64,000 nt of DNA from an uncultured SAR86 cluster bacterium (GTDB lineage Bacteria; Pseudomonadota; Gammaproteobacteria; Magnimaribacterales; D2472). The position numbers and the translations under genes are program-made. The stretch covers positions 155,681 through 219,680 of the forward strand of contig CACELG010000001.1 in the NCBI GenBank assembly GCA_902560315.1, written 5' to 3'. This document shows, piece by piece, positions 21,824-44,947 of the stretch (within the stretch, counting starts at the first letter, position 1; each line of letters starts with the position of its first letter). The notes beneath the pieces were generated by a model, which worked only from the letters and a program-made list of their open reading frames with translations, did no database searches and had not been told where the DNA came from.

Positions 21824-22720
21824 ATGAACAATAATTCATTTATTCTTAACGATATAAAAGAATACTTGGTATTTGTGTCACAGGTTAAAAATCTTTCTGA
21901 AAATACTTCTAAGTCTTATGAAAGGGACTTAAAAAAACTTGATTCATTTCTAAAAGATATAAATATTTCAAATTATTCACAAATTAATGTTGAAACCTGC
22001 TCTGCATGGATAGGAAGTCTTTATTCTCAGAATAATAATCCTAGGAGTATTCAAAGACACTTATCATCAGCAAAAGGTTTTTTTAGATTTTTAAAAAAGA
22101 ATAATCTAATAGATTCCTCGCCTTTTGATTTAGTTACAGCTCCTAAATCTTCTAGCACCCTTCCTGAAGTTTTGTCACCAGAGGATGTTGAGCAACTCTT
22201 AAATTTTAAGCCAACAAATATGATAGAGATTAGGGATATGGCAATTGTAGAACTTATGTATTCATCAGGATTAAGAGTTTCAGAAACAGTAAATATAAAT
22301 ATAAATGATTTTGAAGAGAATAAATCTTTCTTACGTGTTCTTGGAAAAGGTGCAAAAACTAGATTGGTTCCAATGGGAAGGTTTGCAATAAATGCAATTG
22401 ATGATTGGTTAAAAGAAAGGGATAAAATCCAAAACAATACGGATGCTCTTTTTTTAAATACTAAAGGAACAAGATTAACTGTAAGGAGTATTCAATTAAG
22501 GCTTAAAAAAATGGCTGTTAAACAGGGACTTCCTCCAATTCATCCTCATATGCTAAGACATAGTTTTGCAACTCACATGCTAGAATCAAGTGGTGACCTC
22601 AGAACAATCCAAGAACTATTAGGTCACAGCTCTTTATCCACAACACAAATTTATACTAAGTTAGATTATCAACATCTGGCAAAGATTTATGATCAATCTC
22701 ACCCTAGAGCTAAAAAATGA
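21824..22720 (+). CDS. xerC: Tyrosine recombinase XerC
   Basis: YSSGLRVSE, GKG.K.R, HPHMLRHSFATH, LLGHSSLSTTQIY, HPRA; dapF-yigA-xerC-yigB order. Confidence 0.95.
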   Translation: MNNNSFILNDIKEYLVFVSQVKNLSENTSKSYERDLKKLDSFLKDINISNYSQINVETCSAWIGSLYSQNNNPRSIQRHLSSAKGFFRFLKKNNLIDSSPFDLVTAPKSSSTLPEVLSPEDVEQLLNFKPTNMIEIRDMAIVELMYSSGLRVSETVNININDFEENKSFLRVLGKGAKTRLVPMGRFAINAIDDWLKERDKIQNNTDALFLNTKGTRLTVRSIQLRLKKMAVKQGLPPIHPHMLRHSFATHMLESSGDLRTIQELLGHSSLSTTQIYTKLDYQHLAKIYDQSHPRAKK

Positions 22721-23424
22721 TTAAGCAAATCAAAATGATAACTTTTGATCTTGATGATACCCTTTGGGACAACCATCCAACCATCATGAAAGCTGAAGTT
22801 GATACTAGAAAATGGATTGAGAATAAAGTTGGAGAAGTTGAATGGGGAGATTTTAATGACTTCATAAATCTTCGTGCTGATCTAATTAGAGAAGATGAGA
22901 CTATAGAATGGGATATAAGCAAACTTAGAAAAGAGATTTTTAGAAAAAAACTTAGTCATGTCACTCCAGAGAATCTTAGAAACGAAATTGTAGATAAAGC
23001 TTTCGACATCTTCATTGAAAAAAGGCATGAAATCAAATTGTTTGATGGAGTTAAAGAGTCTATAAAGAACTTGTCAGAAAAATATATTTTAGGGGTTCTA
23101 ACTAATGGCAATGCAGATGTGTATAAGTTTGATATAGGTAAGTATTTTAGGTTTTCTATAAGTTCTCTTGAGGCAAAAAATAGCAAGCCAAATCGTGCTC
23201 ACTTTGATATGGCAATTTCGCGAGTGAGTAATATTTCATTCGATAATATTCTTCATATTGGCGACCATCAAATTAATGATATTTTTTGTGCATATAATCT
23301 TGGTATAGATACACTATGGTTTAATAATAATAATGTTAGTTGGGCTCAAGATTTTAAGAAACCTGATGAATTTTCTTCTTGGCATGATTTGGAACAGACT
23401 ATAAGAAATAAATATGAACGATAA
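22717..23424 (+). CDS. HAD-family phosphatase (YigB-like)
   Basis: FDLDDTLW, TNGNAD, KP, HIGDH..ND; follows xerC. Confidence 0.88.
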   Translation: MIKQIKMITFDLDDTLWDNHPTIMKAEVDTRKWIENKVGEVEWGDFNDFINLRADLIREDETIEWDISKLRKEIFRKKLSHVTPENLRNEIVDKAFDIFIEKRHEIKLFDGVKESIKNLSEKYILGVLTNGNADVYKFDIGKYFRFSISSLEAKNSKPNRAHFDMAISRVSNISFDNILHIGDHQINDIFCAYNLGIDTLWFNNNNVSWAQDFKKPDEFSSWHDLEQTIRNKYER

Positions 23425-23644
23425 AAATCTTTCGGAAGCGATCAAAAATATTATTGAAAAAGAACTTAAAGCTATTAGTAAATTATTACCTAAAGAAGTT
23501 ATATCTAATATAGAAAGTAAAATATCACCACAAGTTGAAAAAATAATTGATCAAAGTGGGTATATAAAGAAATCAAAATATAAAAACTTTGAGAAAATAA
23601 TTAATGAGCTTGAGAGTAGAATTTCTGAACTAGAAAAGAACTAA
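23414..23644 (+). CDS. Probable UbiK/YqiC (BMFP family) small coiled-coil protein
   Basis: 76 aa with C-terminal LESRISELE coiled coil; length and pattern fit the family. Confidence 0.6.
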   Translation: MNDKNLSEAIKNIIEKELKAISKLLPKEVISNIESKISPQVEKIIDQSGYIKKSKYKNFEKIINELESRISELEKN

Positions 23645-24228
23645 AGTTGGCTTAAGTAAGTGTCGATTCTTTCAGGGTTCATTACAAAACTTGGTTTAAG
23701 CTTAGTTGATGCTTCTTTAATTTCATCTAGGTTTACAGCTTCGCCAACCTGAATAACCCCAATCATTGCCATCATTACGTGAGGATCACATTGATAAACA
23801 TATATGCCTTCTGTATCAAGGGTGACGCTAATATCCATATTCATTTGACCAGCCCAATTTTCAGCTCCTTCTGGAACCATTCCATCAATGGATGCAGAAT
23901 TATGAGACATATCTACAGCCTTAAAATTAATTGTATCTCCTACAGAAACTTTTATTACAGCTGGTTCAAATATCATTTGTCCGCCTTCGCCTGAATTCAA
24001 CATTTTTATAGTATGTTCAGAACCTTGAGATAACTCTACTTTTTTAACCTCAATCGGAGCTGAGGCCATAACTTGAGTCGCTTGAGCGGCACTTCCACAA
24101 TCTTGTCCTTCCAAACATAGTTTTACAGGTACAGATAATCTATCTATAACTGCTTCTTCATACTTCTTTCCATTAAAAAGAACTAAGAAAAATAAAGGAA
24201 GTATTAGTAAAAATTTTCTATCAATCAT
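23641..24228 (-). CDS. Exported pseudoazurin-type blue copper protein with a cytochrome c5-like N-terminal leader
   Basis: Signal or anchor segment, then DRLSVPVKLCLEGQDC, an Ala-rich linker, and a pseudoazurin domain (KMLN.G..G.M.FEPA, HN, YQCDPHVMMAM giving the His/Cys/His/Met type-1 Cu ligands). No CxxCH. Confidence 0.88.
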   Translation of the reverse strand: MIDRKFLLILPLFFLVLFNGKKYEEAVIDRLSVPVKLCLEGQDCGSAAQATQVMASAPIEVKKVELSQGSEHTIKMLNSGEGGQMIFEPAVIKVSVGDTINFKAVDMSHNSASIDGMVPEGAENWAGQMNMDISVTLDTEGIYVYQCDPHVMMAMIGVIQVGEAVNLDEIKEASTKLKPSFVMNPERIDTYLSQL

Positions 24229-24232
24229 ATTT

Positions 24233-24856
24233 TTAAGAATTAGGTCTTTGCAGCTCTACGACGTGATCTACAACTTTTAATAACTTTTCGTAAGAACCTT
24301 TTGGTTCAATTATATATTTACCGTCAACAATTATCATTGGTACTGATGAAACTTTAAGCTGCCTTGCATGCTTGATTGCTCTATTAACTTGCTGTTTAAC
24401 AGTAAAGGAATTTAGATATTGCGATGAAACCTCTGGAGCTACTCCAAATTTTTCTAAAAAATCTTGAATAGTATTTGGGTTTTGTAAAAAATTACCTTCT
24501 TTATGAATGGTTACAAAAACAGCATTATGTGTGGATGGATCTAGTTTTAATGCCTCAATGGTGAAATACAAAGAAGCGTGGAGTTGATGAATGCCTCCCC
24601 ACGTAACGGGTATTTTGGATAGCTTTACATCATCTGTTTGTCTTGATTCCCATGCGTTAATTACAGGATCAAATTGATAGCAAGCATTGCATCCATACCA
24701 AAACGTTTCAGAAACCTCAACAACACCATCTCTTTTGACAGGTAAAGGATTGTCGACAATCCGATAATCTACGCCAAGCCTGAATTCAGCATTAGTAAGT
24801 GCTGTAAAAGATATGATAAATATGAAAATTAAACTATTCTTTATGTATTTTTTCAT
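24233..24856 (-). CDS. dsbA: Thiol:disulfide interchange protein DsbA
   Basis: Signal peptide, E.FWYGCNAC..F, cis-Pro loop SVP.IIV.GKY; downstream of cytochrome c4 as in Pseudomonadales. Confidence 0.88.
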   Translation of the reverse strand: MKKYIKNSLIFIFIISFTALTNAEFRLGVDYRIVDNPLPVKRDGVVEVSETFWYGCNACYQFDPVINAWESRQTDDVKLSKIPVTWGGIHQLHASLYFTIEALKLDPSTHNAVFVTIHKEGNFLQNPNTIQDFLEKFGVAPEVSSQYLNSFTVKQQVNRAIKHARQLKVSSVPMIIVDGKYIIEPKGSYEKLLKVVDHVVELQRPNS

Positions 24857-25518
24857 TGATATAACCCATGCATATAATTGGCCAAAGCATCTATTTCATA
24901 ATCAGAAAGGTTTTCAGAAATTGACTGCATAATATTTGAAGATTCTCCAGCATTTCTTTCTTTAGATCTATAAGCTTTCAGCGTTGATGTTAAATACCCA
25001 ACTTGTTGTCCTGCTATAGAGGGATAGCCAGCTAAACTATTCCCTTCTCCGTAGACAGAATGGCAGGATGTACAAGCAGGTATTTGTTTTTTCATATTTC
25101 CAAATCTATATAGCTGTGTACCTAGTGCTAATAGCTCCTCATCATTTTTTGCCTGGCCTACGGTTGAATTATATTGAGAATAAAAAGCAGCAATATCTTT
25201 TAAGTCATCATCACTTAATGTCTGAAGGTAGGGAGTAACTGACATCATAAGAACGTTCATCCTATCTCCATCTCTAAAATATTTTAGTTGCTCATAAAGA
25301 TATCTTTGATTCTGGCCTGAAAGTTTTGGCCAATCAGTACTAATACTATTTCCATCTACTCCATGACATGCAGCGCATGTTTCAACCAACAAAGATCCTT
25401 TATTTGCATTGCCTGAAATAAAAGACTCTGGCATTTCTATTTCTTTAGTTTTATCATCAGCAGCACTTAATACGCCAGTAAAGCTAAAGAAAATATAGAA
25501 TATTAGAAAATACTTCAT
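24853..25518 (-). CDS. Diheme cytochrome c4
   Basis: CAACH and CTSCH heme motifs, P.L.GQ repeats, distal Met residues, signal peptide. Start placed at ATG 25518. Confidence 0.93.
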   Translation of the reverse strand: MKYFLIFYIFFSFTGVLSAADDKTKEIEMPESFISGNANKGSLLVETCAACHGVDGNSISTDWPKLSGQNQRYLYEQLKYFRDGDRMNVLMMSVTPYLQTLSDDDLKDIAAFYSQYNSTVGQAKNDEELLALGTQLYRFGNMKKQIPACTSCHSVYGEGNSLAGYPSIAGQQVGYLTSTLKAYRSKERNAGESSNIMQSISENLSDYEIDALANYMHGLYQ

Positions 25519-25585
25519 TGAATATAAATTGTGTGTCTTGTAGGTGTGTATTATAAACATAGGTTGATATGATATAAACGGTTAA

Positions 25586-26167
25586 ATGAAAAACCTTTTT
25601 AAAAATACAGAGTTTGTTTTTGGCGTTACAAGCTATAGAAATCTTCCAGAAGATATTGGAAGCGAGGTTTTGCTTGCTGGTAGATCTAATGCTGGTAAAT
25701 CTAGTGCACTTAATATACTGACTGATAATCCAAAGCTAGCAAGAATCAGTAAAACTCCAGGCAGGACAACAGAAATTAATTTCTTTAAAGTAAATGAAGG
25801 GCTTATGCTGTTAGACCTTCCTGGATATGGCTTTGCAAAATCTAGTAAAGCAAAAAAGAAAGATTGGGGCCCATTATTAGGAGAATATTTTCAAAAAAGA
25901 AGAGCTTTAACTGCTGTGGTAATATTTATGGATATTCGTCATCCGCTTAAAGAAAGTGATTGGGAGATGATTCACCTTTGTAGGAATTTTAATGTTCCTT
26001 TTATACCGGCTCTTACAAAAAGCGACAAACTATCAAATAATAATATAAACAAGGCAATTACCTTCATTAAAGATAAGATTCCTGAATCAAATCCCATTGC
26101 TATATCTACTAAAGATAAAAATGGTTTTGACAAGCTTTCCAAAGAAATAATAAACTTTGTAAAGTAA
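25586..26167 (+). CDS. engB: Ribosome biogenesis GTPase YihA/EngB
   Basis: GRSNAGKSS, SKTPGRT, DLPGYG, TKSD. Confidence 0.96.
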   Translation: MKNLFKNTEFVFGVTSYRNLPEDIGSEVLLAGRSNAGKSSALNILTDNPKLARISKTPGRTTEINFFKVNEGLMLLDLPGYGFAKSSKAKKKDWGPLLGEYFQKRRALTAVVIFMDIRHPLKESDWEMIHLCRNFNVPFIPALTKSDKLSNNNINKAITFIKDKIPESNPIAISTKDKNGFDKLSKEIINFVK

Positions 26168-26670
26168 TGCTTGAATATCAAAAACAAAACTGTGATCTTA
26201 CCTTGCAAGAAGGATTAGAGTGTTACTACAACTCTTTTCCTGAGACCACAGAAATATTTGGAGATAATAATGAGTCTGGAACCCTTCTCAGAGACCATGA
26301 CTGTACACATGTAATTTTTGGGCTAGATATTTCTATTGAGCAAGAGTCTATTCTTGATAGTTGGGTATTATGGGGAAGCAAATGGGAATTAAAATATTTA
26401 TTAGGCTATCAAAAACTTCCCCAGATAAAAAAACTTTATAAAGACTTAGTAAATGAAATAGGATATTTTGGATTCATTAAAATTCTATGGAAGCTTAGTG
26501 GTATTAAAAGAAAGGTCATATTTAGAACCTTTAAGATGAAGAAGAAATGGCCATTTAAAATGCCCGAAGAGTATCTCTCAATGAAAATTTCGGATCTAAG
26601 AGAAATGCATGGTATTAAAGTTCTTCTTCCTGAAGAAATGATTTATATTCCATTAGAGAGAGTTCATTAA
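26167..26670 (+). CDS. Coq4-motif protein of unknown function
   Basis: HDCTH-VIFGLDISIEQ-E equals HDxxH-x11-E, the Coq4 metal motif; start overlaps the engB stop. Confidence 0.6.
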   Translation: MLEYQKQNCDLTLQEGLECYYNSFPETTEIFGDNNESGTLLRDHDCTHVIFGLDISIEQESILDSWVLWGSKWELKYLLGYQKLPQIKKLYKDLVNEIGYFGFIKILWKLSGIKRKVIFRTFKMKKKWPFKMPEEYLSMKISDLREMHGIKVLLPEEMIYIPLERVH

Positions 26671-40721: not shown

Positions 40722-41636
40722 TTAAAGAATATATACAAACAAAAAAAGCATAACCCATACAACATCAACAAAATGCCAATACCATGAGGCTGCCTCAAAT
40801 CCAAAGTGGTCATGTTCTTCAAAGTGGCCTGCAAAAACAGACCTGCCTAGCATAATTGCCAACATGAAACCTCCCATCATTACATGGAAGCCGTGAAAAC
40901 CTGTTAACATGAAAAAAGTTGACCCATATATTCCAGAGTTTAACGTTAGACCATAATGAGCGTAAGCTTCGTAATATTCTGCAGCTTGTAATCCAACAAA
41001 AATTAAAGCTAAGAATACTGTTATTCCTAAAAAAGTGTTAAATCTTTTCCTATTGCCTTTTTTTAGTCCGAGATGAGCTATGTGGACTGTTACAGATGAG
41101 CTTAAGAGCACAATCGTATTCCAAAGAGGTAACCACTTTAGAGCATGGTCCCATCCTGGCCATGCCATACTCTTATCAGCCAAATCATACTCAGTTCCTT
41201 GGTCTGGAGTTGTCATAACAGGCCATGAAGACTCAAAAGCAGGCCATAGCTCAATAGCAGAAATGTAAGCACCTTTTGAACCTTCACCTGCTAACCACGG
41301 AACGGCTAAGGTTCTTACATAAAATAAAGCTCCGAAAAATGCTGCGAAAAACATGACTTCAGAAAAAATGAACCAAGCCATACCATAAACATAAGATTGT
41401 TTTAATTGATTTGAATCTAAGCCTGCAAGGTGCTCTTTAATAACCTGTCTAAACCAAAAAAACATTGTTAAAAAAAGACATCCAAAACCGAAATACAATA
41501 TGTAAACTGAGTTACTAGAAGGATCGTCTAAGTTATTTATTGTGCTAGAGGCACCCATTACGAGCAGAAATAAGGAGACCGCCATAAATATGGGAAACCT
41601 GCTTTGATCAGGTACGTAGTAACTTCCTCCACTCAT
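40722..41636 (-). CDS. coxC: Cytochrome c oxidase subunit III
   Basis: FIFSEVMFF, NT..LLSSS, FFMLTGFHG.HV, WYWHFVDVVW. Confidence 0.97.
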   Translation of the reverse strand: MSGGSYYVPDQSRFPIFMAVSLFLLVMGASSTINNLDDPSSNSVYILYFGFGCLFLTMFFWFRQVIKEHLAGLDSNQLKQSYVYGMAWFIFSEVMFFAAFFGALFYVRTLAVPWLAGEGSKGAYISAIELWPAFESSWPVMTTPDQGTEYDLADKSMAWPGWDHALKWLPLWNTIVLLSSSVTVHIAHLGLKKGNRKRFNTFLGITVFLALIFVGLQAAEYYEAYAHYGLTLNSGIYGSTFFMLTGFHGFHVMMGGFMLAIMLGRSVFAGHFEEHDHFGFEAASWYWHFVDVVWVMLFLFVYIL

Positions 41637-41643
41637 TTCCTGC

Positions 41644-42201
41644 TTACTCCGCTGCCATTTGGTGATGTGCTAAAACTTCATCATTATAGTCAGTAATATC
41701 AAAAATTGTGTATGACAAAATTATATTTTTTATGTTCGATGGAAGTTCATTTGAAACTAATAATTTAACTGGAAGAAGAGCTTCTTCACCAGGCATTAGT
41801 TCTTGTTGCTCGAAACAAAAACATTCTAGCTTTTTTAAATGTGCTGCAGCGTTTGATGGGGCAACACTTGGAACTGCCTGAGCAGTCATTTTTCTATTTG
41901 TTGTATTTTTTACATAGAAAGTAGCGCCATGATATTTACCAGTTTCAATTTTCATTACTTGCTCTGAAGGTTTAAAAGTCCAGGGCATGTTTTCGTTATT
42001 AGTAGATATAAACTGAATAGCAATAGTTCTTCCATCATCCGTGATAAGGTCTTCTGAATACTCTGATTGAAAAACTTTTCCGTTAATGCCAGTTACTTCA
42101 CAAAAGACATCATACAAAGGCACAAGCGCAAAACCAAAAGCAAACATTAATGGAACAGCAACTACTAATTTAATTAATGTTTTCTTAGCACCTTTTTTCA
42201 T
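41644..42201 (-). CDS. ctaG: Cytochrome c oxidase assembly protein CtaG/Cox11
   Basis: VPLY..FC..TG, CFCF. Confidence 0.95.
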   Translation of the reverse strand: MKKGAKKTLIKLVVAVPLMFAFGFALVPLYDVFCEVTGINGKVFQSEYSEDLITDDGRTIAIQFISTNNENMPWTFKPSEQVMKIETGKYHGATFYVKNTTNRKMTAQAVPSVAPSNAAAHLKKLECFCFEQQELMPGEEALLPVKLLVSNELPSNIKNIILSYTIFDITDYNDEVLAHHQMAAE

Positions 42202-43784
42202 TAATCAACCTTCGGTGGTGTTGAGAAGGTGTGATAAGGAGCTGGAGAAGCTACTGTCCACTCAAGACCTTTTGCCCCTTCCCAAACTTGATCAGTTGCT
42301 TTTTTGCCACCCATCACAGTTTTAATAACAATAAATAAAAACAGCAGTTGTGAAAAACCAAATAAAAATGCTCCAACGCTCGAAACCATATTCCAATCAG
42401 CAAATATTAAAGAATAATCAGGATATCTTCTTGGCATTCCTGCTAAGCCAATAAAGTGTTGAGGAAAAAAGGTTACATTAACTCCGATAAATGACAACCA
42501 AAAGTGTAGTTTTCCCAATCTTTCGTCATACATATTGCCGCACCATTTTGGAATCCAATAATAAACAGCAGCCATAATAGAGAATATTGCTCCTGGCACA
42601 AGAACATAATGAAAGTGCGCAACAACAAAGTAAGTATCGTGATATTGAAAATCAGCCGGAACAATTGCAAGCATTAAACCAGACAATCCTCCGATTGTGA
42701 AAAGAACAACAAAAGAAATAGCGAATAACATAGGCGTTTCAAAAGTAAGCGAGCCTCTAAACATTGTTGCTACCCAATTAAAGACTTTTACGCCTGTTGG
42801 AACAGCTATCAACATGGTTGCCCACATAAAGAATATTTCTGCAGCTAAAGGCAGTCCAACTGTAAACATGTGATGTGCCCAAACTACAAAAGAGAGTATG
42901 GCAATTGAAAGCATTGCCCAGACCATTGATGAATATCCAAAGAGCTGTTTCCTAGAAAATGTTTCAATTATATGAGAAACAATACCAAAGGCGGGCAAAA
43001 TCATTATATATACCTCTGGGTGACCAAAGAACCAAAATATATGCTGAAATAAAACTGGATCTCCGCCTCCAGCTGCATTAAAGAAACTTGTTCCAAAATG
43101 AATATCCATTAACATCATTGTTACAGCACCGGCAAGAACTGGCATCACTGCAATTAATAAATACGCGGTAATTAACCATGACCATACAAACAAAGGCATT
43201 TTCATTAAGTCTACGCCAGGAGCTCTCATATTCATAATAGTGACAACAACATTAATTGAGCCCATTATTGAAGATGCTCCCATTATATGAACAGAAAATA
43301 TAAAAAAGGTAACACTTGGGGGAGCATAGGTTGTTGATAGTGGAGCGTAAAAAGTCCATCCAAAGTTTGGAGCTCCGCCCTCCATAAATAATGATGATAA
43401 TAAAATAAAGAATGCAAAAGGCAGTATCCAGAAACTTAAATTATTCATTCTGGGTAAAGCCATATCAGGTGCTCCAATCATCATTGGAACTAACCAGTTT
43501 GCTAATCCAACAAAAGCAGGCATTACCCCTCCAAAAATCATTATCAGTCCATGCAGCGTAATCATTTGATTATAAAATTCAGGTTCAACTATTTGCATTC
43601 CAGGCTGGAAAAGCTCTGCTCTAATAACCATTGCCATTGCACCACCAATCAAGAACATGGCAAAACTAAACCATAAATAAAGAGTTCCTATATCCTTATG
43701 GTTTGTTGTATACAACCATCTTGTTATGCCCTTAGCAGGCCCATGATGATGGTCGTCATGATGATTTTCTATTACTGCGCTCAT
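42201..43784 (-). CDS. coxA: Cytochrome c oxidase subunit I (A1-type)
   Basis: HKDIG, GHPEVY, WAHH, HDT..VVAHFH, GMPRR. Confidence 0.98.
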   Translation of the reverse strand: MSAVIENHHDDHHHGPAKGITRWLYTTNHKDIGTLYLWFSFAMFLIGGAMAMVIRAELFQPGMQIVEPEFYNQMITLHGLIMIFGGVMPAFVGLANWLVPMMIGAPDMALPRMNNLSFWILPFAFFILLSSLFMEGGAPNFGWTFYAPLSTTYAPPSVTFFIFSVHIMGASSIMGSINVVVTIMNMRAPGVDLMKMPLFVWSWLITAYLLIAVMPVLAGAVTMMLMDIHFGTSFFNAAGGGDPVLFQHIFWFFGHPEVYIMILPAFGIVSHIIETFSRKQLFGYSSMVWAMLSIAILSFVVWAHHMFTVGLPLAAEIFFMWATMLIAVPTGVKVFNWVATMFRGSLTFETPMLFAISFVVLFTIGGLSGLMLAIVPADFQYHDTYFVVAHFHYVLVPGAIFSIMAAVYYWIPKWCGNMYDERLGKLHFWLSFIGVNVTFFPQHFIGLAGMPRRYPDYSLIFADWNMVSSVGAFLFGFSQLLFLFIVIKTVMGGKKATDQVWEGAKGLEWTVASPAPYHTFSTPPKVD

Positions 43785-43798
43785 AATATTTTCCTATC

Positions 43799-44947
43799 TT
43801 AAATCTTTGGTTCTTTATAATCTACGATGTCTTTTGGAATTACTATTTCTCCATCCCCTTTTTCTGCATTACCCCATGATTGTCTTGTGTATGTAATCAC
43901 TGCCGCCAATTCAACTTCTGATAAGTAACTAAAAGAATTCATGGCTGCACCCTGAACTCCTTCCATTAGGATTTCAATATTCCTATCCTTATTGTTCATA
44001 ACAATATCACTACCGGCTAAAGCAGGGAATATTCCTGTGATTCCTTCTCCTGAAGTTTGATGACACGCAACACAGTTAACTTGATAGATGCCTTCGCCTC
44101 GCTCCATTAATTCTCCGGTTGTCCATTCTTTGGTAGTTAGCTCAGCAAGTTTTATTGCTTCTTGTTTCTTGCCATAGACCCAATCGTCATACTCAGACTG
44201 CTCGACTACTTTTACAACAATAGGCATAAAGCCATGGTTTTTGCCACATAGTTCGGTGCATTTTCCTCTATAGATTCCTGGCTTGTCCACCACCGTCCAT
44301 GCTGTATTCACAAATCCAGGTATGGCATCTTGTTTAATAGCGAATGCCGGCAACCACCATGAATGAATAACATCATTTGCAGTTATTAAGAATCTAATTT
44401 TTTTACCAGCAGGTATAACAACCATTTCGTCAACTTCTTGTAAATAATTTTCGCCTTTTGGAACTAGGTTATAAATTTCATCGAGATCTGTTGAAAGATT
44501 AGAGAAAAAACTAACATCATCTTCCAGGTAATTATACTGCCATTTCCATTGGTATCCTGTAACTTGAATATTTATATCTCCCGCTTCATCATCGTAAATC
44601 TTTACTAGTGTTTTAGAAGCTGGAACTGCCATCGCTATAAGAATAAGAAATGGTATTATGGTCCAAGCTATTTCAAGCTTGTGATTTTCATGAAATTTTG
44701 CAGGGACTGGATTTTTTTTCTTTGTATGTGCCCACATTGAGTAAAACATTACCCCAAAAACAAGAACACCGATTGCAACACATATCCAAAAAATTAACAT
44801 GTGCAGTTCAAAAACTTCATTGCTAATGTCGGTGCTTCCTCTAGTCATGTTTAGAGCAAACCAATCAGCTTTAATTAGCGGTGAAGCAACAAAAAATAAA
44901 AATATAGATATATTCTTCTTAGATAGATTAAAAAGTTTATAAATCAT
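43799..44947 (-). CDS. coxB: Cytochrome c oxidase subunit II with fused C-terminal cytochrome c
   Basis: DVIHSW and CTELCGKNHGFM CuA site; C-terminal CVACH with distal Met. Confidence 0.97.
   Translation of the reverse strand: MIYKLFNLSKKNISIFLFFVASPLIKADWFALNMTRGSTDISNEVFELHMLIFWICVAIGVLVFGVMFYSMWAHTKKKNPVPAKFHENHKLEIAWTIIPFLILIAMAVPASKTLVKIYDDEAGDINIQVTGYQWKWQYNYLEDDVSFFSNLSTDLDEIYNLVPKGENYLQEVDEMVVIPAGKKIRFLITANDVIHSWWLPAFAIKQDAIPGFVNTAWTVVDKPGIYRGKCTELCGKNHGFMPIVVKVVEQSEYDDWVYGKKQEAIKLAELTTKEWTTGELMERGEGIYQVNCVACHQTSGEGITGIFPALAGSDIVMNNKDRNIEILMEGVQGAAMNSFSYLSEVELAAVITYTRQSWGNAEKGDGEIVIPKDIVDYKEPKI

What the first reader, a model, noticed from the sequence alone, without database searches (positions are those of the whole stretch)
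23641..24228. Cytochrome c5 leader fused to a copper pseudoazurin: apparent heme-to-copper domain swap
Seen: after the signal or anchor segment comes EAVIDRLSVPVKLCLEGQDC and an Ala-rich linker. A complete pseudoazurin domain follows, with type-1 Cu ligands (HN; C-x2-H-x4-M in CDPHVMMAM). The protein has no CxxCH. Established, from recollection: Pseudomonadales cytochrome c5 (CycB type) starts with a very similar segment (..I..RL.PVG.VC..G..C plus an Ala-rich linker) ahead of its heme domain, whereas ordinary pseudoazurins lack it. cycB also lies downstream of the xerC-yigB-ubiK block in those genomes. Inference: the heme domain of c5 was replaced in place by a blue-copper domain while the leader (possibly a docking or tethering module with a C-x5-C disulfide) was kept. 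The result would be an iron-free carrier for the aerobic respiratory chain of an oligotrophic marine heterotroph, analogous to plastocyanin replacing cytochrome c6. No denitrification genes, the usual pseudoazurin partners, are in the window.
Basis: partly seen in the sequence, partly recalled or inferred. Interest (0 to 1): 0.85.

Follow-up and report, generated by a model that had tools for sequence, protein, structure and literature searches.

The report
Pseudoazurin riding cytochrome c5's docking tail
In a tiny-genome marine bacterium the haem-carrying head of a respiratory electron carrier (cytochrome c5) has been replaced, at the same spot in the genome, by a copper protein that keeps c5's docking tail, which would make one link of the respiratory chain iron-free.

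Summary
Window 23641..24228 (-) encodes a 195-aa protein. It has a signal/anchor segment, a 25-residue conserved tail with C-x5-C, a low-confidence linker, and a complete pseudoazurin (TIGR02375 134 bits, cut-off 110). The four copper ligands are invariant in 26 of 26 relatives. There is no CxxCH.

The tail is homologous to the N-terminal tail of cytochrome c5. It hits c5 genes of sister genera at E 1.5e-15. A profile built from pseudoazurin-borne tails alone finds a single significant PDB chain, Pseudomonas aeruginosa c5 (8SMR). In that structure the tail docks c5 onto cytochromes c4 and c1.

In sister genera the same slot (engB | c4-dsbA-[X] | 76-aa ORF-yigB-xerC) holds tail-c5, tail-pseudoazurin followed by a tail-less c5, or tail plus a small cytochrome c. 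Of 151 genomes of the order, 68 carry tail-pseudoazurin and 67 tail-c5. None carries both. Within one genus the two states differ by one clean indel of about 510 bp.

The own genome (90% complete) showed no c5, nirK, nirS, nosZ, CCP or cbb3. It has bc1, c4 and a caa3-type oxidase.

Untested: copper binding, docking, electron transfer and any link to iron scarcity.

The parts
23641..24228 (-). Whole gene for the tail-bearing pseudoazurin (195 aa plus stop)
24169..24228 (-). Residues 1-20: hydrophobic signal or signal-anchor segment. Cleavage is uncertain because there is no clear A-x-A site.
   Evidence: sequence; AF2 helix 5-31 at pLDDT about 60
24094..24168 (-). Residues 21-45: conserved c5-type docking tail (KKYEEAVIDRLSVPVKLCLEGQDCG) with C38-x5-C44
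   Evidence: predicted contacts with c1 and c4 at residues 24, 27-28, 30-42 and 44-45
24025..24093 (-). Residues 46-68: Ala/Ser-rich linker. Variable in length and sequence; predicted disordered.
   Evidence: pLDDT below 50 for residues 45-58; alignment
23644..24024 (-). Residues 69-195: pseudoazurin domain. Copper ligands H109, C147, H150, M155, followed by two C-terminal helices.
24233..24856 (-). dsbA, directly upstream in the same orientation. It ends 4 nt before the pseudoazurin start.
24853..25560 (-). Dihaem cytochrome c4 (likely start at 25518), first gene of the c4-dsbA-pseudoazurin string. It is the predicted docking partner of the tail.
25586..26167 (+). engB/yihA GTPase, divergent from c4. 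It marks one border of the conserved slot.
23414..23644 (+). 76-aa coiled-coil ORF convergent with the pseudoazurin; the two stop codons overlap. It had no family hit at E<0.001 here.
21824..23424 (+). xerC and a HAD hydrolase (yigB-like). They form the other border of the slot and are conserved across the order.
40722..44947 (-). coxB (COX2 with a fused C-terminal cytochrome c domain), coxA, ctaG, coxC. This is the only cytochrome-c-dependent terminal oxidase found, and the likely electron acceptor.
   Evidence: ccoN not found

Best explanation
The gene encodes a copper electron carrier built on the chassis of cytochrome c5.

Shown:
- It is a bona fide pseudoazurin domain joined by a flexible linker to the N-terminal tail that cytochrome c5 proteins of Gammaproteobacteria carry.
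- It occupies the very slot where sister lineages have tail-c5.
- The two forms exclude each other.

Inferred mechanism:
- As in the solved P. aeruginosa bc1-c4-c5 complex, the tail (residues about 21-45) docks onto cytochrome c4 and cytochrome c1. c4 is encoded two genes upstream.
- The pseudoazurin head swings on the linker, takes electrons from c4, and delivers them to the caa3-type oxidase encoded in the same window.
- This replaces one haem iron per carrier with copper.

Inferred history:
- Tail-c5 is ancestral, because it is the form found outside the order.
- A cassette (pseudoazurin domain, stop codon, spacer, new signal peptide) came to lie in the c5 linker. This gave tail-pseudoazurin plus a separate tail-less c5.
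- In the window's genus the tail-less c5 was then lost.
For: Domain identity.

Tail homology:
- E 1.5e-15 to 5.9e-8 against c5 frames of the same family.
- c5 of genome G477 aligns with PDB 8smr_L, tail included, at E 3.9e-19.
- The pseudoazurin-only tail profile hits 8smr_L alone, at E 9.4e-6.
- Named Vreelandella and Halomonas c5 carry the tail.

Same slot:
- In the window's family, engB | c4-dsbA-[X] | 76-aa ORF-yigB-xerC holds tail-c5 in L046, L047 and L048.
- It holds tail-pseudoazurin plus short c5 in L045 and L093.
- It holds tail-pseudoazurin alone in L052-L054; in L055 likewise, but with no c4 at the locus.
- 12 of 12 c5 loci of a second family lie convergent with yigB-xerC.

Exclusion, by my classification, tallied. 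Of 151 genomes of the order:
- 68 have tail-pseudoazurin.
- 67 have tail-c5.
- 10 have the tail on a small cytochrome c.
- None has two kinds; 6 have none found.

All 20 tail-less c5 genes lie directly downstream of a tail-pseudoazurin (coordinates).

Indel: within one genus, DNA of a tail-c5 genome and of a tandem genome aligns on both flanks and differs by one insertion of about 510 bp (901 versus 1411 bases). In a second genus, homology runs through promoter, signal and tail, and stops just after the second Cys.

Tails cluster by lineage, not by head.

Pseudoazurin heads of the long form: 29 of 30 fall in one group that follows the family structure.

Docking:
- The paper's passages say the 16-residue c5 tail contacts both c4 and c1 while the head is mobile.
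- Complex model of own c1, own c4 and the tail: score 0.82 in three runs, best of 3 controls 0.53. That mark was reached by 58 of 80 solved complexes and 2 of 110 mismatched pairs. Runs agree in at least 65% of contacts. Partner pLDDT is 57-58. Own alignments and haems rode along, so the calibration holds only roughly. A like complex is solved, so the pass may reflect memory.

The three genomes of genus g329, where c4 was not found, have a degenerate tail.

Partners in the own genome: bc1 c1, c4, and caa3-type cox. No c5, nirK, nirS, nosZ, CCP or ccoN. Only one tail in the genome.
Against: - Nothing biochemical is known. Copper binding, tail docking, the C38-C44 disulfide and electron transfer are all unmeasured.
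- P. aeruginosa c5 serves a cbb3 oxidase. This genome shows only a caa3-type oxidase, so the acceptor side has no precedent.
- In the complex model, replacing c1 still gave 0.53. Part of the signal is therefore c4 alone or generic, and the solved 8SMR may have been memorised.
- It is unclear whether the first 20 residues are cleaved. If not, membrane anchoring could matter as much as docking.
- The genome is 90% complete, so a c5 or another partner could lie in the missing tenth.
- A second, ordinary pseudoazurin exists, so copper carriers are not unique to this gene.
- The polarity of the indel is not resolved. The c5-head tree is short (81 columns) and weakly supported.
- Within-genus polymorphism requires repeated loss, reversion or recombination, and I did not sort these out.
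- The iron-sparing rationale was not tested against any environmental data.
Confidence: 0.72

Rival explanations
1. Membrane-tethered pseudoazurin. The N-terminal hydrophobic segment is not cleaved and simply anchors the copper domain to the inner membrane, as in cytochrome cy or lipid-modified azurin. The conserved tail is a spacer and does no specific docking.
For: The window's family has ...LFNGKKY... with no clear A-x-A cleavage site. AF2 draws one helix over residues 5-31. One distant relative (L064) has a lipobox-like LLGC before the tail.
Against: Other families have ordinary cleavage-type signals (for example ...LSLGASEA......ATFAQD...) before the same tail. The tail is the best-conserved part outside the copper domain, with R30, C38 and C44 invariant in 26 of 26. 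The homologous tail in P. aeruginosa follows a cleaved signal: 16 + 102 residues out of a 136-aa precursor (my arithmetic). That tail binds c4 and c1. Anchoring and docking do not exclude each other.
Confidence: 0.15
2. Ordinary soluble pseudoazurin. The c5-derived leader is an evolutionary leftover with no present function, and the protein diffuses freely in the periplasm like the second pseudoazurin.
For: Pseudoazurins normally work as free carriers (established knowledge, recalled). A short paralogue exists in the same genome.
Against: The tail is kept under constraint across at least three families and on three different heads. It decays only in the one genus where c4 was not found. The complex model places it on c4 and c1.
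Confidence: 0.08
3. The protein serves a partner other than the aerobic chain, such as a nitrite, nitrous-oxide or peroxide reductase, as pseudoazurins do in denitrifiers.
For: This is the usual role of pseudoazurin (established knowledge, recalled). The genome is 10% incomplete.
Against: No nirK, nirS, nosZ or CCP_MauG family match in the own genome. The gene sits in a string with c4 and replaces c5.
Confidence: 0.04
4. Artefact: a chimeric assembly or a mis-called ORF.
For: None found.
Against: The same architecture appears in 68 of 151 genomes of the order, in 1419 metagenome proteins, and in RNA-library contigs of three studies.
Confidence: 0.01

Closest known systems
Cytochrome c5 of the Pseudomonas aeruginosa bc1-c4-c5-cbb3 supercomplex (PDB 8SMR/8SNH; PMC10556555)
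   Same: Same N-terminal tail: chain residues 20-42 align to the window's tail. Same tail-linker-head layout. c4 and bc1 are present in both organisms. The predicted docking of the window's tail onto c4 plus c1 matches what the paper describes.
   Different: The head is a type-1 copper pseudoazurin instead of a class-I haem domain, and there is no CxxCH. The likely acceptor is a caa3-type oxidase, not cbb3.
Pseudoazurin (TIGR02375; solved examples 3TU6, 1BQK, 1PAZ)
   Same: The domain scores above the equivalog cut-off. Copper ligands H, C, H, M are in the C-x2-H-x4-M arrangement. The two C-terminal helices are present.
   Different: It carries about 48 extra residues (c5 tail plus linker) between the signal segment and the domain. 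It sits in a respiratory c4 gene string in a genome without denitrification enzymes. The solved pseudoazurins matched only from residue 71 onward.
Plastocyanin / cytochrome c6 and pseudoazurin / cytochrome c550 interchange (recalled, from no call)
   Same: A copper carrier and a haem carrier do the same job.
   Different: In those cases two separate genes are switched by regulation within one genome. Here the heads are exchanged on one shared docking tail at one locus, and the two forms are alternatives between genomes (0 of 151 with both).
Tethered carriers: Rhodobacter cytochrome cy (abstract listing) and the lipid-modified azurin of Neisseria (recalled)
   Same: A small redox head held near its partners by an N-terminal anchor and a flexible linker.
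   Different: Those use a membrane helix or a lipid. Here the conserved element is a protein-docking tail inherited from c5.

Membership tests
Pseudoazurin (TIGR02375 equivalog) | Whole-protein score above the curated cut-off | tested here: met
   134.2 bits against 109.85, residues 76-194
Pseudoazurin (TIGR02375 equivalog) | Type-1 copper ligand set: His, then Cys-x2-His-x4-Met | tested here: met
   H109, C147, H150, M155; invariant in 26 of 26 rows; aligned with 3tu6_A
Pseudoazurin (TIGR02375 equivalog) | Cupredoxin beta-sandwich followed by a two-helix C-terminal extension | tested here: met
   AF2 model: strands within residues 71-161, helices 167-180 and 187-194, pLDDT above 90. No structure search was run.
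Pseudoazurin (TIGR02375 equivalog) | Blue-copper spectrum and redox activity | not testable with these tools
   Needs purified protein.
Cytochrome c5 (class-I c-type cytochrome, PF13442) | CxxCH haem-binding motif and the c5 head with its C-x2-C pair | tested here: not met
   No CxxCH in the protein. The only Pfam hit is PF00127. It is therefore not a cytochrome c5.
Cytochrome c5 (class-I c-type cytochrome, PF13442) | N-terminal tail ...R-x7-C-x5-C... followed by an Ala/Ser/Gly-rich linker | tested here: met
bc1-c4-c5 type docked carrier (as in 8SMR) | Tail homologous to the 16-residue segment that binds c4 and c1 | tested here: met
   The profile of pseudoazurin tails hits 8smr_L residues 20-42 at E 9.4e-6. 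Which 16 residues were built I infer to be the mature N-terminus; the SI figure was not seen.
bc1-c4-c5 type docked carrier (as in 8SMR) | Cytochromes c4 and c1 present in the same genome | tested here: met
   c4 at window 24853..25560; c1 at L096 711..1538 beside cytochrome b
bc1-c4-c5 type docked carrier (as in 8SMR) | Physical docking of the tail on c4 and c1 | tested here: inconclusive
   The model supports binding (0.82 against best control 0.53; mark reached by 58 of 80 solved complexes and 2 of 110 mismatched pairs). A like complex is solved, so this shows likeness, not binding.
bc1-c4-c5 type docked carrier (as in 8SMR) | cbb3 oxidase as the acceptor | tested here: not met
   ccoN TIGR00780 was not found in the 90%-complete genome. 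A caa3-type cox operon is present.
Lipid-anchored cupredoxin (Laz-like) | Lipobox cysteine at the end of the signal peptide | tested here: not met
   No Cys in residues 1-37. Only the distant relative L064 has LLGC.

The most novel reading that the evidence does not exclude
One docking tail with interchangeable redox heads. Across an abundant clade of streamlined marine Gammaproteobacteria, a single respiratory slot is filled by alternative heads mounted on the same c4/c1-docking tail: haem c5, a small c-type cytochrome, or copper pseudoazurin. The alternatives persist as alleles within genera and move by cassette-like indels or recombination. Local iron and copper supply would select among them, so the respiratory chain's metal demand would be tuned by swapping a plug-in head rather than by regulation.
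Probability: 0.35. Interest if true: 0.88.

Novelty: new variant of a known kind. Interest (0 to 1): 0.78.

Why it matters
Haem-copper interchange of soluble carriers is textbook for photosynthesis, but it has been seen as two genes under regulation. This would be a natural domain graft. The docking tail was only shown in 2023 to fix c5 onto the bc1-c4 complex, and here it is reused to hold a copper head. This occurs in a lineage that is very common in ocean metagenomes (1419 close relatives in the protein collection).

It offers three things:
- A natural test of how much of a carrier's function lies in its tether and how much in its redox head.
- A locus-level marker, copper head versus haem head, that could be read in ocean metagenomes against dissolved iron.
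- A clean example of how a gene is split and re-headed by one indel.

Three full-text searches found no paper linking pseudoazurin with SAR86, with cytochrome c5 in this sense, or with marine iron limitation. Subscription journals and supplements were not covered.

Tried and rejected
Single-sequence search with the 54-residue leader in 400 genomes of the class. It gave 6 genomes at E<=0.1.
- Two were the protein itself and a congener.
- One (G161, E 0.017) was a true tail-bearing c5 and gave the lead.
- Three (G367, G435, G239) were chance frames.
- The query was too weak on its own; profiles and near relatives were needed.

Word-indexed search with the G161 c5. It gave 12 hits, too few to use, and was set aside in favour of genome searches.

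Promoter and terminator scan. It found 7 promoter-like sites against 11.5 expected, which is uninformative. That c4, dsbA and the pseudoazurin are co-transcribed rests only on the 4-nt overlap and the 4-nt gap.

RNA-library contigs.
- Contigs of 4 runs from 3 studies cover parts of the gene at 95% or better.
- One 1713-nt contig runs from 23759 to 25471.
- Contigs cannot show strand, ends or level, and DNA may be present in such libraries. I therefore take this only as compatible with expression.
- Bins without cover mean nothing.

c5-head tree. It has 35 rows and 81 columns, with 15 of 31 inner branches below 80. It is good only for the placement within genus g330 (93). It does not settle whether the tail-less c5 genes have one origin.

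Polarity of the 510-bp indel, and the number of switches within genera: not resolved.

Organism name. Record titles say only 'Gammaproteobacteria bacterium'. That this is SAR86-like is my guess from genome size, G+C content and habitat; it was not tested.

Link to low-iron water: not tested. The run list is coded and carries no chemistry.

Supplements of PMC10556555 could not be seen. These include SI Fig. S1E, which shows the modelled tail.
Full report
WHAT IS THERE

Window 23641..24228 on the minus strand is an open frame of 195 codons. Pfam sees one domain, PF00127 (E 5.2e-17). NCBIfam places residues 76-194 in the pseudoazurin equivalog TIGR02375 at 134.2 bits, above its cut-off of 109.85. 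Solved pseudoazurins match from residue 71 on; the best is 3tu6_A at E 2.1e-30.

In an alignment of 26 full-length relatives, the four copper ligands H109, C147, H150 and M155 never vary.

An AlphaFold2 model built on that alignment gives:
- pLDDT above 90 for residues 61-195, with the cupredoxin strands and the two C-terminal helices typical of pseudoazurin.
- A helix over residues 5-31 at pLDDT about 60.
- pLDDT below 50 for residues 45-58.

The protein has three cysteines (38, 44, 147) and no CxxCH.

THE LEADER IS THE CYTOCHROME c5 TAIL

Searching the whole protein against 151 genomes of the same order gave the full-length relatives. It also gave 21 listed rows in which only residues 3 to about 57 match, at E 1.5e-15 to 5.9e-8, in frames of 134-159 aa. 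The cytochrome c5 query (P0123) matched 11 of these frames over their full length and 9 only weakly; these 9 are the small-cytochrome form described below. One (G465) it did not match.

Reading them shows the same signal segment and the same tail as in the window, followed by a linker and a c5 haem domain. In the window's family the tail reads ...FNGKKY[DE]..V..R......C.EG..CG. The c5 domain has CxxCH and a later C-x2-C.

A c5 of this kind (G477) aligns with PDB chain 8smr_L, 'Cytochrome C5' of Pseudomonas aeruginosa, at E 3.9e-19, tail included.

A 31-column profile made only from 18 pseudoazurin-borne tails finds that chain and nothing else in the PDB: E 9.4e-6 over chain residues 20-42, with the next hit at E 0.35.

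Tail-bearing c5 genes also occur in named Vreelandella massiliensis and Halomonas caseinilytica and in Pseudomonadales MAGs.

A search of 1.84 billion representative proteins with a mixed tail profile gave 127 hits at E<=0.001. By motif I sorted them as follows:
- 51 with one CxxCH (6 of them of the small-cytochrome kind).
- 3 with two CxxCH.
- 1 full pseudoazurin and 9 pseudoazurin fragments.
- 63 with the leader only or another content. Most of these are fragments under 100 aa; one is an obvious false positive of 1746 aa.

So the tail normally carries haem heads. The copper head is the exception.

THE SAME SLOT HOLDS c5 IN RELATIVES

In the window the order is engB (+) | c4, dsbA, tail-pseudoazurin (all -) | 76-aa ORF, HAD hydrolase (yigB-like), xerC, DUF484, dapF, lysA read from the other side.

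In genomes of the same family the identical slot between dsbA and the 76-aa ORF holds one of four things:
- Tail-c5: L046, L047, L048.
- Tail-pseudoazurin followed by a separate tail-less c5 with its own signal peptide: L045, L093.
- Tail-pseudoazurin alone: L052, L053, L054 and L055. In L055 c4 is missing from the locus and dsbA abuts engB.
- The tail on a small c4-half-like cytochrome c: L040, L041, L042. Pfam PF00034 hit.

In a fourth family the slot holds tail-c5 (L049, L050). In a second family the gene is not next to dsbA/c4, but it is still convergent with yigB-xerC. That holds for 12 of 12 c5 loci (L028-L039) and for the pseudoazurin loci L017, L018, L063 and L095.

COUNTS

I classified the match rows by the part of the query covered. 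I checked the classes by reading 31 pseudoazurin sequences and more than 20 c5 sequences, and tallied them. Of 151 genomes of the order:
- 68 have tail-pseudoazurin.
- 67 have tail-c5. This is 61 plus 6 of a form with a longer linker, two of which I read in L043 and L044.
- 10 have the tail on the small cytochrome c.
- No genome has two of these.
- 6 have none found.

Twenty of the 68 also have a tail-less c5. In all 20 it lies directly downstream on the same strand.

Several genera are mixed:
- g7: 12 pseudoazurin, 7 c5.
- g332: 3 and 5.
- g330: 2 tandem, 1 c5.
- g336: 1 and 3.
- g337: 2 and 1.
- g328: 2 pseudoazurin, 9 small cytochrome.

In the window's genus the long pseudoazurin is in 22 of 24 other genomes; the two without it are 80% and 70% complete. 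c5 was found in 0 of 7.

These genomes are relatives, so the counts are not independent events.

HOW THE SWAP LOOKS IN DNA

Within genus g330, a tail-c5 genome and a tandem genome align at about 85-90% identity through the end of dsbA, the signal and the tail. They align again from the c5 haem domain through the 76-aa ORF.

Between those flanks the tandem genome has one extra block: 1411 against 901 bases, about 510 more. The block comprises the end of the linker, the pseudoazurin domain, a stop codon, a short spacer, and the start and signal peptide of the now separate c5.

In genus g7, a pseudoazurin-only genome and a c5 genome align through the upstream region, signal and tail. Likeness is lost just after the second tail cysteine.

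Tails group by lineage and not by what they carry.

In a quick maximum-likelihood tree of 48 pseudoazurin domains, 29 of 30 long-form heads fall in one group (SH-aLRT 80).
- Its subgroups follow the three families.
- It is separate from most short paralogues.
- The thirtieth long-form head is a long branch of uncertain place.
- I left out duplicate rows L002, L004, L007, L010, L011, L012, L022 and L062 before the tree.

In the shorter c5-head tree (35 rows; L011, L012, L022, L034, L037 and L066 left out), the tail-less c5 of g330 are sister to the tail-c5 of the same genus (93). Little else is resolved.

My reading of the history:
- Tail-c5 is ancestral, because it is what occurs outside the order.
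- The pseudoazurin head was grafted once, probably from a resident short pseudoazurin, producing the tandem form.
- The tail-less c5 was then lost in several lines, including the window's genus. There the pseudoazurin stop codon now overlaps that of the neighbouring 76-aa ORF.
- The mixed genera require reversion by deletion, long-lived polymorphism, or recombination between species. I could not tell these apart.

WHAT THE TAIL DOES

The paper on the P. aeruginosa bc1-cbb3 supercomplex (PMC10556555; I read the passages returned, not the whole text or the supplement) makes the following points:
- Each bc1 monomer carries cytochrome c4 and cytochrome c5.
- Density accommodates the 16-residue N-terminal tail of c5, which contacts both c4 and c1.
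- The remaining 102 residues, linker and haem head, are mobile.
- Sub-classes show the head either above c4 or next to CcoP.

The authors conclude that the head shuttles electrons from c4 to the oxidase.

The window's tail is homologous to that segment.

I folded the own c1 (periplasmic part), the own c4 (alignment of 25), three haems and residues 20-72 of the pseudoazurin (alignment of 26). Results:
- Score 0.82 in all three runs.
- Controls 0.00, 0.00 and 0.53.
- The mark was reached by 58 of 80 solved complexes and 2 of 110 mismatched pairs.
- Runs agree in at least 65% of contacts; partner pLDDT is 57-58.

The confident contacts are tail residues 24, 27-28, 30-42 and 44-45. They touch c1 residues 52-94 and c4 residues 120-125, 155-156 and 215-221.

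Because 8SMR exists, this may be recall of a known interface. It shows likeness, not binding.

A small natural control points the same way. In the three genomes of genus g329, c4 was not found; the only hit was the cytochrome domain of CoxB. In that genus the tail has lost the usual V.C.EG..CG pattern.

THE REST OF THE CHAIN

The own assembly (1.08 Mb, 19 contigs, 90% complete) has four credible c-type cytochrome genes:
- c4.
- c1, next to cytochrome b.
- CoxB with a fused cytochrome c domain.
- A 350-aa protein with two CxxCH.

The cox operon (coxB, coxA, ctaG, coxC) lies in the window at 40722..44947.

Family searches of the genome found:
- No nirK, nirS, CCP_MauG or ccoN.
- No nosZ of the TAT type.
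- For the Sec-type nosZ, only a 16-bit match on the CuA domain of CoxB.

The tail profile finds one place in the genome, this gene. A second, ordinary pseudoazurin lies on contig 12.

The likely path is therefore bc1 to c4 to the docked pseudoazurin to the caa3-type oxidase. The last step is inference, and it has no structural precedent.

WHAT IS KNOWN AND WHAT IS NEW

Already known:
- Pseudoazurins.
- The c5 tail.
- Tethered carriers.
- Haem/copper carrier pairs.

I did not find in print a pseudoazurin mounted on the c5 tail, or such a swap in marine bacteria. The searches were:
- 'pseudoazurin' with 'SAR86': 0 papers.
- 'cytochrome c5' with 'pseudoazurin': 34 papers, of which 20 were listed. 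By title and abstract all concern denitrification or general physiology.
- 'pseudoazurin', 'iron limitation', 'marine', 'metagenom': only one listed paper holds 'pseudoazurin', and it is on P. aeruginosa.

These searches cover open full texts only.

I therefore rate this a new variant of a known kind.

Open points:
- Copper binding, docking, the disulfide and the acceptor.
- Whether the signal segment is cleaved.
- The polarity and number of the swaps.
- The proposed link to iron scarcity.

RNA-library contigs from three studies contain the gene. That is compatible with expression but does not prove it.

Noticed in passing
L040 4792-5226 (-), L041 5027-5428 (+), L042 5035-5478 (+): A third head on the same tail at the same locus, in genera g327 and g328. 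It is a small c-type cytochrome (one CxxCH, PF00034) most like one half of c4. It is present in 10 of 151 genomes of the order, and none of these 10 has c5 or the long pseudoazurin.
   Followed up: partly
L055 5017-5598 (-); genomes G441, G481, G489: In genus g329, c4 was not found in 3 of 3 genomes (90-93% complete); dsbA abuts engB at the one locus read (L055). The pseudoazurin's tail has a deviant C-x4-C and lacks the usual EG..CG. This may be co-loss of the tail motif with its partner.
   Followed up: partly
G000:C12:32-406 (L076): A second, ordinary short pseudoazurin in the same genome, 52% identical to the long form's domain. Such a paralogue is present in many genomes of the order, including some that carry tail-c5. 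Its partner is unknown.
   Followed up: partly
L064 2998-3615 (+), MAG SP171: A distant tail-pseudoazurin (48% identity) whose signal ends in a lipobox-like LLGC. It is possibly a lipid-anchored version. Its neighbours differ from those at the usual locus.
   Followed up: no
G475:C5:57374-57586 and like rows of G529, G510, G030, G443: A c5-like domain inside a 591-aa open frame in five genomes of family f4. The rest of the protein was not examined.
   Followed up: no
P0161 (298 aa), P0190 (301 aa), P0244 (276 aa), P0188 (234 aa): Among the representative proteins, three have the tail followed by two haem domains and one has two tails in tandem before one c5 head. The tail-linker-head scheme is elaborated in several ways.
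   Followed up: no
G000 contig C1, + strand, from about base 245870 (outside the window): A 350-aa ORF with two CxxCH motifs and no obvious family name from my reading. It is the only other candidate c-type cytochrome in the genome.
   Followed up: no
window 26167..26670 (+): A 167-aa ORF directly after engB, conserved at 47-90% identity at this position in the loci of the family where it was seen. No family was looked up.
   Followed up: no
window 43799..44947 (-): CoxB carries a C-terminal cytochrome c domain (PF13442/PF00034, residues 281-356), so the oxidase is of the caa3 kind. This domain is a plausible landing site for the docked carrier.
   Followed up: partly
L019, L020, L021, L023, L043, L044: In family f3 the linker after the tail contains a conserved ...SGPG[YW]KV... 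stretch, whichever head follows. It may be an extra contact element.
   Followed up: no
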